Shown here: piece by piece, positions 46,156 to 49,710 of the stretch | Position numbering within the stretch: position 1 is the first letter of the stretch | Layout: every line of letters begins with the position of its first letter | From: a virus | Lineage: Duplodnaviria; Heunggongvirae; Uroviricota; Caudoviricetes | IMG/VR virus record: IMGVR_UViG_2778261541_000006 | Span: 1-60,273 of that record | DNA length: 60,273 bases | Reading direction: 5' to 3' (one strand) | Notes under the pieces: model-generated | Database searches by the model: none | What the model was told of the DNA's origin: nothing | What the model saw: only the letters and a program-made list of their open reading frames with translations | Position numbers and translations under genes: made by a program

Positions 46156-46857
46156 TTATTCTGATTCTCGCTCAAAAAATGAGCTGATAAGGGGAAGCCA
46201 ATCCTCTGACACTTCGCGAGGTCGCGGTTTGCCGTGGAAAAAGATTATTCGGCAGTCTTTTGGTAATGCCCCATTCCCCCTGGAGTAACGCGCGCTCGCA
46301 TATTTTGAACCAGGTTCCACAACATCGGCCTTGTAACTTACAAACCATCCTGGATACAGATCCTGAAATGCTGGTGTATCATCGCCCATAACCTTTCGTA
46401 AGAACCCCTGGTCCCCCCAGCACTCAGTAGTGACACAACGAGAAATCCAACCTTCCGGATCTTGCCAGAATGAACTCCAGATATGCGCTTTAACACTATT
46501 TGGTATCCACAGGGCACCGCTGCCACGATATTGTGGATGGTAAAAATCCCTAAGCATGGTGAAGCTGGTTGGTGGATGCTCTAGGATTGGGCGTATATCA
46601 CCGGCAATAACCGTGTCCAAATCCAGATAGAACAGATCATCGGTTATATCCGGTCGGAACAACTCGATTTTCGCCCACCAGCCACGGCACTTTTGCCACT
46701 GGTTGATCAATGGGACAACTTTGACGCCAGGTACATGTAAACGCTTCAGGTCTGTCAGGCAAATAATTTCATAGCCTTTTGGCAGTTGATTAACCAGCCA
46801 CTGCACATCGGAAGCGTTATAGTCACCACCAGAGCGAAAAACTAAAGCAATCTTCAT
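46156..46857 (-). CDS. hypothetical protein with glycosyltransferase-like DxD motif
   Basis: 233-aa ORF; YLDLDTVI resembles the nucleotide-sugar-binding DxD motif; weak call. Confidence 0.35.
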
Positions 46858-47552
46858 GCTGCACCATCACCTTTCACTTTCACTTTCATCAATGTCAGGT
46901 TTCCGCAAAATACGGCACCAGTGTCGATATACTGCTGATTCCAGAATGTCTTCGGGCTTTTCACCGGAGTGTGACCAAAGATAAAACGATCTGCGCCCGA
47001 AATTTCGCCACCAATATCATCCATCGAATCACTGATACGCTCGCGCGCCCAGACAACGTTGAAAAGCGGCACCTCCTTACCGAATTGGTATTCATTATCC
47101 GGATAGTCGGCATGGGCTATAACGATAGTTTCTTGCCCCGTGTTCAACTCAATGATATAGGGCAGACGCTTTACCAGCTCCACCAGCGCCCAGGCTAATA
47201 TTTCCTGATCAGTGTCCAGCATGAAGAACCATTGTCCGCCATTCATTAGCCAGTTATTCACGTTGCCATCTGGACTTAACGCATCAATCATCAGCCGCTC
47301 ATGGTTCCCCATCACTGCCCTGAACCAGGGCATCTGCAATAGTTCCAGACATTCGACATTTTCAGTACCGCGATCGATAAGGTCGCCTACCGATATCAGT
47401 AAATCCTGCGCCGGGTCAAAATCCACACGATGGAGTTCGGACATCAGTCTGGTGTAGCAACCATGCAGATCACCAACAACCCAGACATTCCTGTATTTGG
47501 TACCGTCGATACGGTGATAAATTGTGGGTGCCATCATGTATTCTTCAGCCAT
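46854..47552 (-). CDS. Ser/Thr protein phosphatase (lambda-PPase/calcineurin-like metallophosphoesterase)
   Basis: Motifs GDLHG, GDLIDRG, GNHE in canonical order. Confidence 0.7.
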
Positions 47553-48160
47553 TCTTTAAGAGTCATCTGCGGAATACCTCCCATTTTCCCGCATGAAACA
47601 ACGTCAATCTGTTCACGCGCAGACTGGAATAACAAAGGCAGGTGACTTAGATTTTTTGGCGTGCCGCCGGAGTGAACGCGTAGTTCTTGCGTAGCGTCAA
47701 CGCCCACCAGAGCTACATGTTTGAATCCGATATGGAAAGCCAGGTTCAGAGCACCATATGCACTATTGCCGCTGGCAATTTCATTCTCATCTTCGCAAAG
47801 GCCGAAATGTGCGGACCAGCGCCACGCCCACCACTCGGGAGAATTCGTATTTTTTGGCTCCATGCCACGTTCAGCCACACGACGGAAGCACAGAACGCCG
47901 TCTCTGACTTCACGTTCTTTAACATCGGGTAGTGCCATGCAATAACAAACACCACGGCGACGGCGGCCACGACCAACGCGCCGCATATTGTCTGGCGATG
48001 GATCAAGTGTGAAAAAATAAGAAGCGCGGTTCAGCCAGTCGATGGCCCCATTGACCGCTATAATCGGCACTCCGCGCGGCGCAACAAAGTTTGCGGCGCT
48101 TGGACCACTGCCGACGATAATAACGCGATCACTGCCTCTAAATTTATTCTTGGGAAACAT
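47534..48160 (-). CDS. hypothetical protein, GSGPS-motif paralog A
   Basis: 208-aa ORF; shares IIVGSGPS ... IIAVNGA ... ALVGVD pattern with the adjacent ORF. Confidence 0.35.
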
Positions 48161-48720
48161 TGAATTGCACTGCTCCTACTTGCATTCAAAATATGTAAAT
48201 CTGCGTGTTTTTTGCGGGTATCCAGGAACTGCTGTTGCCATTTTGAAATAGACACCTGCGTTGGATTCCGTAGGGCTTGAGGGTGCGCGCCATGCCAATG
48301 AAGGCCGTTTTGCAGAGAACAGTCATAGCCGACTAATACCACTACTTCAGCCCCTGATTCAGCAGCCAGACTGATAGCCTGCGCGCCGCTATTTACCCCT
48401 TCCGCCGGTCCACAATATCGCCTGTACTCCAACGAAAATGATTTCGCCGCCGCCAGGTTGGCTGTCACTTTGCGGAATCTCCCTCCCGGTATGGTGGATC
48501 CGTATTGCTTCCACCATGACAAATCACCGGCGTATAAGGCATAAATGTCATCGAACATCTGCCAGGAATTGTTAACCGCGATGATTGAACAGCCAGTTTT
48601 TTCTATAGCAGCACAGTCCTCACGAGTGAGTGACGGACCGCTACCGACACAAAAAACAGTCCTAGTCGCCCTGCGTGGTATGTTCATTCTCAGCTGCAAA
48701 TTCAGCCTCCAGGCGAGCAT
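48058..48720 (-). CDS. hypothetical protein, GSGPS-motif paralog B
   Basis: 220-aa ORF (CVGSGPS ... IIAVNNS ... VLVGYD); overlaps paralog A by about 100 nt in another frame. Confidence 0.35.
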   Translation of the reverse strand: MLAWRLNLQLRMNIPRRATRTVFCVGSGPSLTREDCAAIEKTGCSIIAVNNSWQMFDDIYALYAGDLSWWKQYGSTIPGGRFRKVTANLAAAKSFSLEYRRYCGPAEGVNSGAQAISLAAESGAEVVVLVGYDCSLQNGLHWHGAHPQALRNPTQVSISKWQQQFLDTRKKHADLHILNASRSSAIQCFPRINLEAVIALLSSAVVQAPQTLLRRAECRL

Positions 48721-48883
48721 TCATTTCAGCGATTACAGGGTCCACTACAGCATCTGTTTCCTGTTCATTACGCGGCATGATCGATGCCAGCGATTCATAA
48801 TTAGCCTTGGATGACACGATTATTCTCCCGATGTTAATGTGCGCTATATCAAATGGCGCATATGTACTAATTAATTTATTATT

Positions 48884-49462
48884 TTAAGCAGCATACAACC
48901 ACTTGTCGCCGTTCAATACATGCTCAATAGCCTCACCCTTTTTAAGGCTTATGTATTCCAGGATGGCGGTTATCGCTTGTTCTGCACCATACGCAAGAAC
49001 GACGTAGTAACCTTCCTCTCTAAGCCTGCGCATCCAGGCGATCTGCTCTTTCGTCGGGGCTTTACCATTTGGTTCTTTAAGCTCAATTCGCATGCCGTGA
49101 TAAATACCGCATGCTTTATCGAGACTCATGTCCGGATAACCTTTTTTCTGCCCTTCAGCCTTCATTTTCCCGGCGGTTGCTTTTGAACGTTTCCCTCCGT
49201 TAGGCGTTGCATGCAACAGCTCATAGATGTCAGGGTGCTTGCGTTCGAAGTAATCAAAAATGAAAACCTGCTCGAAGTGCTCGCAATTTCCGTCGCGCAG
49301 GTCTGGGTTCTTTGCCAGTGCTGCAAGTGCCTTCGCATGTGGAGAAACTTCTTTTACCGGCGCAAGCGATAAGAATGGATCCTTTTTGGTTTTTGGCCTG
49401 GACCGCCCCTTATTTCGACGCTCACTAAAAGCCTGAAACTCTTCCTCAGTAAAGCGCAACAT
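48884..49462 (-). CDS. VRR-NUC-like nuclease domain protein
   Basis: 192-aa ORF; C-terminal PD-(D/E)xK-like region (GYPDMSL ... ELKEPNGK) reminiscent of VRR-NUC; tentative. Confidence 0.4.
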   Translation of the reverse strand: MLRFTEEEFQAFSERRNKGRSRPKTKKDPFLSLAPVKEVSPHAKALAALAKNPDLRDGNCEHFEQVFIFDYFERKHPDIYELLHATPNGGKRSKATAGKMKAEGQKKGYPDMSLDKACGIYHGMRIELKEPNGKAPTKEQIAWMRRLREEGYYVVLAYGAEQAITAILEYISLKKGEAIEHVLNGDKWLYAA

Positions 49463-49464
49463 AA

Positions 49465-49710
49465 TCAGTCAAATCCTGCCGGTCGCATGCCATATTTACG
49501 CTGTTTTGCGGCCTGCTCTTCCCTGTGCCATTGCGCACATTCAGCGTCACAATAAATGCCTGATTCAATCGATTCATTGCAGTAACGACACTTCCCTGTA
49601 AATACCTGGCTCACGACCTGTGCCTGCTTTCTGATGTTATCGATGGCCATGTCTTTGAGAGCTTCTAACTGATTCATGCTCAGCTCTGCATCATCAACAC
49701 GTTCTGCCAA
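49465..49710 (-). CDS. TraR/DksA-type C4 zinc-finger protein
   Basis: 81-aa ORF with CxxC-x17-CxxC (CRYCNESIESGIYCDAEC) typical of phage TraR-family proteins. Confidence 0.5.
   Translation of the reverse strand: MAERVDDAELSMNQLEALKDMAIDNIRKQAQVVSQVFTGKCRYCNESIESGIYCDAECAQWHREEQAAKQRKYGMRPAGFD

What the first reader, a model, noticed from the sequence alone, without database searches (positions are those of the whole stretch)
46156..49710. C1-controlled six-gene operon of enzyme-like proteins of unknown role
Seen in sequence: six co-directional minus-strand ORFs headed by a C1 operator at about 49768: a TraR/DksA-type zinc finger (81 aa), a VRR-NUC-like protein, two overlapping paralogs sharing a GSGPS...AVN...VGxD pattern, a Ser/Thr phosphatase with GDLHG/GDLIDRG/GNHE, and a protein with a DxD-like YLDLDTVI motif. 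Inference: this combination (possible sugar or nucleotide transferases, a phosphoesterase, a nuclease, a transcription-factor-like zinc finger) could be a DNA or host-modification module or an anti-defence operon expressed early after derepression. This is speculation from motifs only.
Basis: inference. Interest (0 to 1): 0.45.

Follow-up and report, generated by a model that had tools for sequence, protein, structure and literature searches.

The report
Phage P1 pmgL–pmgQ gene block
This is the already catalogued, non-essential pmgL–pmgQ block of phage P1; its function is unknown, but its conserved core is a three-enzyme sugar-transferase cassette found in many phages, probably decorating a protein late in infection.

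Summary
The window is 99% identical to phage P1, and the ORFs are pmgL, pmgM, pmgO, pmgP, ppp and pmgQ. The C1 operator at 49768-49784 is real (Op82/O26).

P1 and P7 annotators describe two units rather than one. pmgL-pmgM lies behind Op82 and a late promoter. pmgN-O-P-ppp-Q lies behind an internal promoter and the weaker operator Op83.

Published in-frame deletions of pmgL, M, N, O, P and Q gave no plaquing or anti-restriction defect. Only the CRISPRi screen scored ppp (and upstream-guide-targeted pmgN) directly, and it called every gene except pmgN dispensable.

Family calls are mostly right:
- Ppp is a lambda-type phosphatase.
- PmgM carries a VRR-NUC domain.
- PmgQ has a GT8 glycosyltransferase fold.
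- PmgO and PmgP are distant paralogues with a Maf/sialyltransferase-like fold.
- PmgL is a small four-cysteine protein, not a canonical DksA/TraR finger.

What is new here is that pmgO-pmgP-pmgQ recurs as a cassette in every sufficiently long non-P1 locus examined. It is sometimes fused and often carries a methyl- or sulfotransferase. In phages it sits in late or head-gene regions; in two bacterial genera it sits beside Ig-like surface-protein genes. The likeliest role is late assembly of a glycan on a protein, possibly a virion protein. That role is inferred, not shown. DNA modification or anti-defence is not supported.

The parts
49768..49784 (+). C1 operator Op82/O26, shared by the divergent pmgL and gene 26 promoters
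   Evidence: 2 mismatches to the consensus. Identical to the annotated P1 operator.
49747..49817 (-). Promoter region: sigma-70 promoters P1pmgL (49747-49774) and P2pmgL (49780-49807), and late promoter LPpmgL (49799-49817)
   Evidence: P1 GenBank features mapped onto the window. There is 1 substitution, at 49804. Predicted by the annotators; not tested here.
49465..49710 (-). pmgL: 81-aa four-cysteine (CxxC-x9-CxxxC) small protein. TTG start, with an alternative ATG at codon 12
   Evidence: phrog_54 'DksA-like zinc finger' E 1.6e-12. No Pfam DksA/TraR hit and no PDB relative. Found only in P1-like loci.
48884..49462 (-). pmgM: protein with a C-terminal VRR-NUC (PD-ExK) nuclease domain
   Evidence: PDB 4qbl VRR-NUC E 3.5e-17. 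phrog_5702 'Holliday junction resolvase' E 5e-27. Pfam VRR_NUC 21.2 bits, below the 23.8 cut-off.
48861..48916 (.). Internal control region: C1 operator Op83/Oppp (48861-48877, + strand) and promoter PpmgN (48890-48916, - strand)
   Evidence: Mapped from the P1 annotation. The promoter-like site is also found by the scan. The operator has 2 substitutions against P1 and about 5 mismatches to the consensus.
   Evidence: phrog_2350 E 1.2e-37. Annotated in P1 and P7.
48058..48720 (-). pmgO (hdmB): Maf/GT42-like (MptE-like superfamily) predicted glycosyltransferase. First member of the conserved triad
47534..48160 (-). pmgP (hdmC): distant paralogue of pmgO and the most conserved triad member
   Evidence: hhalign against PmgO: probability 98%, E 7e-14. 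MptE-like hits 36 of 36 homologues. 562/245/102 clusters at E<=1e-3/1e-10/1e-30 among 1.84 billion representatives. Naturally fused to PmgO in P0051.
46854..47552 (-). ppp: lambda-type Ser/Thr (metallo)phosphatase. It occupies the variable slot between pmgP and pmgQ
   Evidence: 1g5b E 1.9e-93. Metallophos E 9e-16. Next to the triad only in P1-like elements. 6-bp insertion at 46871-46876 relative to P1.
46156..46857 (-). pmgQ (hdmD): GT8-fold retaining-type glycosyltransferase with an invariant D79-L-D81 and an FHGxPRP motif. Third triad member
46089..46154 (.). Downstream boundary: C1 operators OpmgRb (46089-46105) and OpmgRa (46138-46154) with promoter PpmgR of the next unit (pmgR-pmgS)
   Evidence: Operator matches. 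Mapped annotation with 0 substitutions.

Best explanation
The region is the pmgL-pmgQ block of phage P1. It consists of two adjacent transcription units that the C1 repressor can shut off.

- Unit 1 is pmgL-pmgM. It sits behind operator Op82 and also has a late (Lpa-type) promoter.
- Unit 2 is pmgN-pmgO-pmgP-ppp-pmgQ. It sits behind an internal promoter and the weak operator Op83. Its genes overlap by 59, 103, 19 and 4 nt, so they are probably translationally coupled.

The seven genes are not one machine. The functional core is the triad pmgO-pmgP-pmgQ: two Maf/sialyltransferase-like enzymes plus one GT8 enzyme. This triad moves among phages as a cassette.

I propose the following, all of it inferred. 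The three enzymes use host nucleotide sugars: a UDP-hexose for PmgQ, and a CMP-activated ulosonic acid such as CMP-Kdo for PmgO/PmgP. They build a short glycan in the cytoplasm late in infection. The acceptor is most likely a protein, and in phages probably a virion component. The glycan is dispensable for plaque formation in the laboratory.

Ppp, PmgL, PmgM and PmgN are P1-lineage additions. Ppp sits in the slot that holds a methyl- or sulfotransferase in other versions of the cassette.

Shown here: gene identity, folds, paralogy, co-occurrence and genomic contexts. Inferred: enzymatic activity, sugar donors, acceptor and biological benefit.
For: Identity and regulation.

Folds:
- PmgQ best matches GT8 enzymes, among them three that act on protein-linked glycans: Gat1, GlyE and glycogenin.
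- PmgO and PmgP are paralogues.

Cassette behaviour:
- O, P and Q co-occur in all non-P1 loci with enough sequence. These come from Citrobacter, Pseudescherichia, Serratia, Pseudomonas, Alloalcanivorax, Zhongshania, Gilvimarinus, Brevundimonas, Sinomicrobium (Bacteroidota) and others.
- Truncated or short loci, and the Longimicrobiales locus (P and Q only), show partial sets.
- PmgL, M, N and Ppp accompany the triad only in P1-like elements.
- O and P are fused into one ORF in P0051.

Glycan-assembly signature. The slot between P and Q holds:
- SAM methyltransferases in 5-6 loci, and as fusions in P0268 and P0310;
- a Sulfotransfer_2 enzyme (E 6e-15);
- weak GT2 and NDP-sugar-transferase hits.

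Late or structural placement:
- directly after the major capsid gene in HK97-like head modules (L096, L098, L105, L108);
- between the Q antiterminator and the lysis genes (L109);
- between the lysis genes and terminase (L003, L004, L106);
- phage D3 has a PmgO-like orf7 right after its major head gene;
- P7 annotators called the genes 'head morphogenesis'.

Protein-acceptor hint: in non-phage islands the triad is interleaved with Big_1/intimin-like proteins in two genera.

Dispensability matches the literature. There is a precedent of non-essential virion glycosylation in mycobacteriophages (Freeman 2023, as summarised in PMC12363180).
Against: - No glycosylation of P1 virions has been reported. 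Neither the P1 proteome paper nor the P1 cryo-EM paper mentions any, although neither looked for it.
- Both enzyme families are equally typical of LPS/LOS core synthesis. LgtC scores as well as the protein-glycan GT8s.
- The four 'after the capsid gene' cases share homologous head modules, so they may represent one insertion event.
- In the lytic coliphage IME392 the cassette lies near ligase and polX genes, not structural genes.
- No acceptor was identified. The Big_1 proteins have no relative in the P1 window or in the phage loci.
- The CMP-Kdo donor rests on a 'faint' WaaZ_KDO_III Pfam hit and weak hhalign results (probability 9-15%).
Confidence: 0.45

Rival explanations
1. The triad modifies the host's LPS/LOS core or another envelope glycolipid. 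A WaaZ-like Kdo transferase pair plus a GT8 core hexosyltransferase would alter the P1 receptor (the LPS core). This would limit superinfection or stop progeny being lost on cell debris.
Against: The genes are C1-repressed in the lysogen, and in other phages they lie in late operons or head modules. LPS made minutes before lysis cannot replace the existing outer-leaflet LPS. The cassette occurs in phages with unrelated receptors. The non-phage copies lie beside adhesin-like genes, not waa or O-antigen loci. The WaaZ similarity has low probability (9-15%).
Confidence: 0.2
2. This is the first reader's idea: the block is a DNA- or nucleic-acid-modification or anti-defence operon. Glycosyltransferases would decorate phage DNA, while the nuclease, phosphatase and zinc-finger protein would counter host defences.
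For: GT-A/GT8-like enzymes do add secondary sugars to 5hmC-linked glycans in some phages (bioRxiv 10.1101/2023.12.21.572611). The block contains a VRR-NUC nuclease. It is C1-controlled.
Against: Single-gene deletions of pmgL-Q did not change anti-restriction or plating (PMC9024508). The block holds no 5hmC- or 5hmU-generating enzyme. The nuclease, phosphatase and PmgL do not travel with the triad. The triad's contexts are structural or late, not replication or nucleotide metabolism. From my own knowledge, P1 DNA is cut by ordinary restriction enzymes.
Confidence: 0.06
3. PmgO and PmgP are not glycosyltransferases but MptE/thiamine-pyrophosphokinase-like (pyro)phosphotransferases acting on a small molecule. 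With PmgQ and Ppp they would make or destroy a metabolite or signalling nucleotide.
Confidence: 0.1

Closest known systems
Phage P1/P7 reference annotation: pmgL, pmgM, pmgN, pmgO, pmgP, ppp, pmgQ (P7: upf81.0, upf81.2, hdmA, hdmB, hdmC, ppp, hdmD)
   Same: 99% nucleotide identity, with the same gene order, operators Op82 and Op83, promoters and overlaps.
   Different: 46 substitutions in 5 kb. Ten of them cluster in the pmgM-pmgN spacer and two fall inside Op83. There is also a 6-bp insertion in ppp.
Maf flagellin glycosyltransferases and GT42 sialyltransferases (Cst-I/Cst-II); Pfam MptE-like/DUF115
   Different: PmgO and PmgP are only about 200 aa and lack Maf's extra domains. Pfam scores for the P1 proteins are below the gathering threshold (23.7 and 20.9 against 34.6). 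The host K-12 makes no sialic, pseudaminic or legionaminic acid, so the donor must differ; CMP-Kdo is a guess.
GT8 retaining glycosyltransferases (Gat1, GlyE, glycogenin, LgtC, WaaO/WaaJ)
   Different: 13-16% identity. There is no Pfam Glyco_transf_8 hit at E<=0.1. It is compact at 233 aa. Donor and acceptor are unknown.
Mycobacteriophage virion glycosylation (Che8, Corndog, Myrna; Freeman et al. 2023, cited through PMC12363180)
   Same: Phage-encoded glycosyltransferases, reportedly accompanied by a methyltransferase (PMC12894461). They modify capsid and tail-tube proteins. From my recollection of Freeman 2023, which was not checked here, the modification is dispensable for growth. The cassette here likewise lies in late or structural regions and is dispensable.
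   Different: Homology between the enzymes was not tested. The hosts here are Gram-negative. No glycosylated P1 protein has been shown.
WaaZ (GT73) Kdo III transferase of the E. coli K-12 LPS core
   Same: The nucleotide-binding motif region aligns with both PmgO and PmgP. The O-P fusion has a faint PF27901 hit.
   Different: hhalign probability is only 9-15%. This supports superfamily-level resemblance at most.

Membership tests
Phage P1 pmgL-pmgQ block (Punavirus backbone) | Nucleotide identity and synteny with P1/P7 reference genomes | tested here: met
   99.0% identity over 5 kb to AF234172/NC_005856. All CDS and operators map one-to-one.
C1-controlled transcription unit | 17-bp asymmetric C1 operator overlapping or adjacent to the promoter | tested here: met
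   Op82 at 49768-49784 has 2 mismatches and overlaps the annotated P1pmgL -35 and P2pmgL -10 elements. Op83 at 48861-48877 is a weak match of about 5 mismatches.
C1-controlled transcription unit | Demonstrated C1 binding or repression and a single transcript covering all genes | not testable with these tools
   This rests on GenBank notes (former Op82, Op83). No convincing intrinsic terminator lies inside the block. Annotators place an internal promoter, PpmgN.
GT8 glycosyltransferases (PmgQ) | GT-A fold closest to GT8 structures | tested here: met
GT8 glycosyltransferases (PmgQ) | DxD metal/nucleotide-sugar motif and a C-terminal H..G..KPW-like motif conserved | tested here: met
   D79, L80, D81, T82, H208, G209, P211 and P213 are invariant in 33 sequences. 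The match to the canonical GT8 motif is judged from memory.
GT8 glycosyltransferases (PmgQ) | Passes the curated Pfam Glyco_transf_8 model | tested here: not met
   No Pfam hit at E<=0.1. Only a family profile against PDB GT8 chains reaches E 1.6e-6.
MptE-like / Maf / GT42 superfamily (PmgO, PmgP) | Fold match to Maf, Cst-I or MptE | tested here: met
MptE-like / Maf / GT42 superfamily (PmgO, PmgP) | Passes the Pfam PF01973 gathering score | tested here: not met
   23.7 and 20.9 bits against a cut-off of 34.6 for the P1 proteins. However, 35 of 36 and 36 of 36 homologues hit the model, with best E-values of 1.7e-11 and 8.6e-7.
MptE-like / Maf / GT42 superfamily (PmgO, PmgP) | Glycosyltransferase activity with a CMP-ulosonic acid donor | not testable with these tools
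   Inferred only. Pyrophosphokinases share the same fold.
WaaZ / GT73 Kdo transferases | Significant sequence or profile similarity to WaaZ | tested here: inconclusive
   hhalign E 1.7e-3 and 3.6e-3 but probability 15% and 9%. The PF27901 hit is 'faint' and seen on the fusion protein only.
Lambda-type Ser/Thr metallophosphatase (Ppp) | Metallophos domain with GDxHG, GDxxDRG and GNHE motifs and close similarity to lambda PPase | tested here: met
   PF00149 at 59.3 bits, above the 21.5 cut-off. 1g5b E 1.9e-93. The motifs are visible in the translation.
VRR-NUC nucleases (PmgM) | VRR-NUC domain with a PD-ExK catalytic core | tested here: met
   4qbl E 3.5e-17 over residues 77-180. The 'PDMSL...IELK' motif is present. 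Pfam scores 21.2 bits, just under the 23.8 cut-off.
DksA/TraR C4 zinc finger (PmgL) | CxxC-x17-CxxC finger and a match to the Pfam zf-dskA_traR model | tested here: not met
   The spacing is C41-x2-C44-x9-C54-x3-C58. There is no Pfam hit apart from weak VATC. Only phrog_54 matches, at E 1.6e-12. The canonical spacing is quoted from memory.
Phage virion-glycosylation systems | A virion protein carries a glycan that depends on the phage glycosyltransferases | not testable with these tools
   No report for P1. This needs glyco-staining or MS of wild-type against deletion-mutant virions.

The most novel reading that the evidence does not exclude
P1 and a wide set of phages of Gram-negative bacteria carry a conserved pmgO-pmgP-pmgQ cassette (two Maf-like enzymes plus one GT8 enzyme, with optional methyl- or sulfotransferases). 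This cassette would glycosylate virion proteins late in infection, possibly with a Kdo-containing glycan made from host CMP-Kdo. The same cassette would glycosylate Ig-like (Big_1) surface proteins in some enterobacteria. That would make the classic phage P1 a glycosylated virus and define a new protein-glycosylation system in Gram-negative bacteria.
Probability: 0.3. Interest if true: 0.7.

Novelty: new variant of a known kind. Interest (0 to 1): 0.4.

Why it matters
The locus itself is not new. It has been in the P1 and P7 records since about 2004, and its genes have been deleted one by one without a laboratory phenotype. They remain labelled 'putative morphogenetic function'.

The comparative result here turns that label into a testable hypothesis. 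Three of the genes form a mobile glycan-assembly cassette, shared by P1-like plasmid-prophages, lambdoid and HK97-like prophages, a lytic coliphage and some bacterial adhesin islands.

If the acceptor is a virion protein, this would extend phage virion glycosylation from mycobacteriophages to the best-known transducing phage and to many phages of Gram-negative bacteria. That could bear on immune recognition of therapeutic phages, on particle stability and on host-range biology.

If the acceptor is LPS, it would be an unusual receptor-editing function expressed in the lytic phase. Either way, the mutants needed for the test already exist.

Tried and rejected
- Single-sequence PDB searches for PmgO, PmgP, PmgQ and PmgL gave nothing significant. 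Only family profiles and structure models were informative.
- NCBIfam gave no hit for any protein except Ppp.
- The first PmgO-PmgP profile comparison was an artefact, because the fusion protein P0051 was in the PmgO alignment. It was repeated without P0051.
- The WaaZ link suggested by the precomputed 'faint' PF27901 hit could not be confirmed. That model is absent from the local Pfam copy, and hhalign to E. coli WaaZ is weak.
- The viral-contig scan with the PmgP profile returned only P1-like contigs in its top 80. Diversity came from genome contigs and from look-ups of encoding contigs.
- Big_1 proteins next to the triad have no relative in the window or in the phage loci, so no acceptor candidate emerged.
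- The AlphaFold database library was unavailable. The BFVD search only showed many uncharacterised Caudovirales proteins with the same fold.
- Lobocka 2004 (tried as PMC523184, a PMC id I recalled from memory) and Freeman 2023 (PMC10527164) are not held.
- A literature search for DUF115/Maf in phage capsids found nothing relevant.

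
Full report
**1. What is there**

The window around 45.5-50.5 kb is 99% identical to phage P1 and its relatives P7, RCS47, SJ46 and JL22.

| Gene | Coordinates |
|---|---|
| pmgL | 49465-49710 |
| pmgM | 48884-49462 |
| pmgO | 48058-48720 |
| pmgP | 47534-48160 |
| ppp | 46854-47552 |
| pmgQ | 46156-46857 |

A seventh annotated gene, pmgN (48662-48817, 51 aa), was overlooked. It belongs to a phage protein family (phrog_2350, E 1e-37).

Mapping the reference annotation base by base onto the window places the control elements as follows:
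- C1 operator Op82/O26 at 49768-49784;
- sigma-70 promoters P1pmgL and P2pmgL, and the late promoter LPpmgL, at 49747-49817;
- a second operator, Op83/Oppp, at 48861-48877;
- an internal promoter, PpmgN, at 48890-48916;
- the operators of the next unit (pmgR-pmgS) at 46089-46154.

The operator consensus occurs 15 times in the window at up to 3 mismatches, against 0.3 expected by chance. The simple promoter scan independently finds PpmgN and shows no convincing terminator inside the block.

The P7 annotation treats pmgL-pmgM (upf81.0/81.2) and pmgN-O-P-ppp-Q (hdmA-B-C-ppp-hdmD, 'head morphogenesis') as separate units, each behind its own operator.

Gene overlaps of 59, 103, 19 and 4 nt tie pmgN through pmgQ together. 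A 66-nt spacer holding Op83 separates pmgM from pmgN.

**2. What is already known**

Gonzales et al. 2022 (PMC9024508) made in-frame deletions of pmgL, M, N, O, P and Q (supplement). Of their 29 knockouts, only pmgA, B, C, G and R were essential. The other 24 showed no plaquing defect and no change in anti-restriction on EcoK, EcoA or EcoB hosts.

The genome-wide CRISPRi screen (PMC10695390) scored pmgL, M, O, P, ppp and Q as non-essential. pmgN scored as essential (EOP 1.4e-2), which the authors flag as contradicting the deletion result.

The block is therefore a catalogued, dispensable part of the P1 backbone. Its function remains unassigned. I found no paper that assigns one.

**3. The individual proteins**

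- Ppp is a close relative of lambda Ser/Thr phosphatase (1g5b E 2e-93; Metallophos).
- PmgM has a C-terminal VRR-NUC domain (4qbl E 3.5e-17).
- PmgL is a small four-cysteine protein. Its only support as 'DksA-like' is a PHROG label. It has no Pfam or PDB match, and its cysteine spacing (CxxC-x9-CxxxC) is not, as I recall it, the canonical DksA/TraR spacing.
- PmgP is a genuine but distant paralogue of PmgO (hhalign 98%, E 7e-14, once a confounding fusion protein was removed). Nearly all homologues of both proteins hit Pfam MptE-like.

**4. The comparative result**

Homologues of PmgO, PmgP and PmgQ occur well beyond P1-like elements. PmgP is the most conserved. It has 562, 245 and 102 clusters at E<=1e-3, 1e-10 and 1e-30 among 1.84 billion representatives.

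I scored family HMMs against every fetched non-P1 locus. All loci with enough sequence carry O, P and Q within a few kilobases, usually overlapping. Truncated or short loci and the Longimicrobiales locus (P and Q only) show partial sets. PmgL, PmgM, PmgN and Ppp appear only in P1-like plasmid-prophages.

In one phage contig O and P are a single fused ORF (P0051).

The position that ppp holds in P1, between P and Q, is occupied elsewhere by:
- SAM methyltransferases in five to six loci, also seen as fusions to PmgP in P0268 and P0310;
- a Sulfotransfer_2 enzyme;
- weak GT2 and NDP-sugar-transferase matches;
- or nothing.

This is the signature of a glycan-assembly cassette with exchangeable tailoring enzymes.

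**5. Where the cassette sits**

| Context | Loci |
|---|---|
| HK97-like prophages (Pseudomonas, Zhongshania, Methylophilaceae, Gilvimarinus): after terminase-portal-protease-major capsid, before the head-completion genes | L096, L098, L105, L108 |
| Lambdoid prophages: between the lysis cassette and terminase | L003, L004, L106 |
| Lambdoid prophage: between the Q antiterminator and the lysis genes | L109 |
| Pseudomonas phage D3: a PmgO-like orf7 alone right after the major head gene; a GT9-looking orf12 (judged by eye) and an annotated methyltransferase orf13 deeper in the head-tail module | L112 |
| Lytic coliphage IME392: O-P-X-Q near ligase and polX genes | L111 |

Two non-phage contexts also exist. 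In the Pseudescherichia and Serratia chromosomes, the triad genes are interleaved with Big_1/invasin-type proteins and an intimin-like autotransporter.

One caution applies. The four 'after capsid' cases share homologous head modules, so they may count as a single event.

**6. Interpretation**

The most economical reading is that pmgO-pmgP-pmgQ build a short glycan from host nucleotide sugars late in infection, on a protein acceptor. Four observations favour a protein, possibly a virion component:
- the late or structural placement of the cassette;
- the adhesin-island contexts;
- Maf as the best structural match for PmgO;
- protein-glycan GT8 enzymes among the best matches for PmgQ.

Non-essentiality fits the mycobacteriophage precedent, where phage glycosyltransferases decorate capsid and tail-tube proteins and affect antibody recognition (Freeman 2023, as summarised in PMC12363180).

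The CMP-Kdo donor idea rests on two things. K-12 hosts lack other CMP-ulosonic acids (my own knowledge), and there is a faint WaaZ_KDO_III hit with weak WaaZ alignments. It is only a guess.

I put the layers of confidence as follows:

| Claim | Confidence |
|---|---|
| Identity and regulation of the locus | about 1.0 |
| Glycan-assembly cassette | about 0.75 |
| Protein or virion acceptor | about 0.4 |

**7. Rivals**

- LPS/LOS core editing is the strongest rival (0.2), because both enzyme families are classic core-synthesis families and P1 uses the LPS core as its receptor. Repression in the lysogen, late timing, and contexts away from waa or O-antigen loci argue against it.
- A small-molecule pyrophosphokinase role for O and P (0.1) is allowed by the fold. 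It fits poorly with the constant GT8 partner and the sugar-tailoring neighbours.

**8. Verdict**

It missed a seventh gene, a second operator with an internal promoter, and a late promoter.

The locus is the known, dispensable P1 pmgL-pmgQ block. The 'one six-gene module' reading and the anti-defence speculation are not supported.

The open function can now be framed as a specific, cheaply testable hypothesis, using mutants that already exist.

Noticed in passing
window 48662-48817 (pmgN): pmgN scored as essential in the CRISPRi screen (EOP 1.4e-2) but non-essential by in-frame deletion. All downstream genes of the same unit are non-essential, so simple polarity does not explain the result.
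   Followed up: partly
window 48838-48865, including operator Op83 at 48861-48877: Ten of the 46 substitutions against the P1 reference in this 5-kb stretch cluster in the pmgM-pmgN spacer. Two fall inside operator Op83, which now has about 5 mismatches to the C1 consensus. C1 control of the pmgN-Q unit may therefore be weaker in this strain.
   Followed up: partly
window 46871-46876 (3' end of ppp): A 6-bp in-frame insertion relative to P1 gives a 232-aa Ppp instead of 230 aa.
   Followed up: no
window 48058-48160; locus L004 10001-11131: pmgO and pmgP overlap by 103 nt in different frames. The overlapping tails are the unconserved ends of both proteins. In another phage the two are a single fused ORF (P0051), and several 395-423-aa library hits (P0306, P0337, P0338) may be similar fusions. 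This suggests the two proteins work as a pair.
   Followed up: partly
window 48687-48720 (5' end of pmgO): Residues 1-16 of the annotated PmgO are unconserved and have pLDDT below 50. Homologues start near residue 18. The real start may be Met12 (48687), which would shorten the overlap with pmgN.
   Followed up: no
L104 (Pseudescherichia) 1236-17532; L107 (Serratia plymuthica) 1674-9603: These are non-phage islands where the pmgO-, pmgP- and pmgQ-like genes lie among several Big_1/invasin-domain proteins and an intimin-like autotransporter. Most of the Big_1 proteins lack an obvious signal peptide. They are possible acceptors of the predicted glycan.
   Followed up: partly
L112 (Pseudomonas phage D3) 3525-4058 and 5415-6810: D3 carries only a PmgO-like gene (annotated as orf6.5 plus orf7), directly after its major head gene. 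Inside the head-tail module it also has orf12, whose N-terminus looks GT9-like by eye, and a methyltransferase, orf13. This may be a variant glycosylation set.
   Followed up: partly
L110 (phage P7) 2284-4999: The P7 depositors named the pmgN-Q genes hdmA-D ('head morphogenesis') and gave the unit its own operator, Op(hdm). They labelled the pmgL/pmgM homologues 'baseplate or tail tube'. The basis for these labels is not given in the record.
   Followed up: no
window 10503-60017 (whole window): There are fifteen matches to the C1 operator consensus at up to 3 mismatches. They include paired or overlapping sites at 25424-25456, 29219-29318 and 59990-60017. This fits P1's dispersed immunity regulon.
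   Followed up: no
L111 (coliphage vB_EcoM_IME392) 5507-8187: A lytic 116-kb coliphage carries the cassette as O-P-X-Q (X is an unknown 285-aa protein) beside DNA ligase and polX genes rather than structural genes. This is an exception to the late or structural placement.
   Followed up: no
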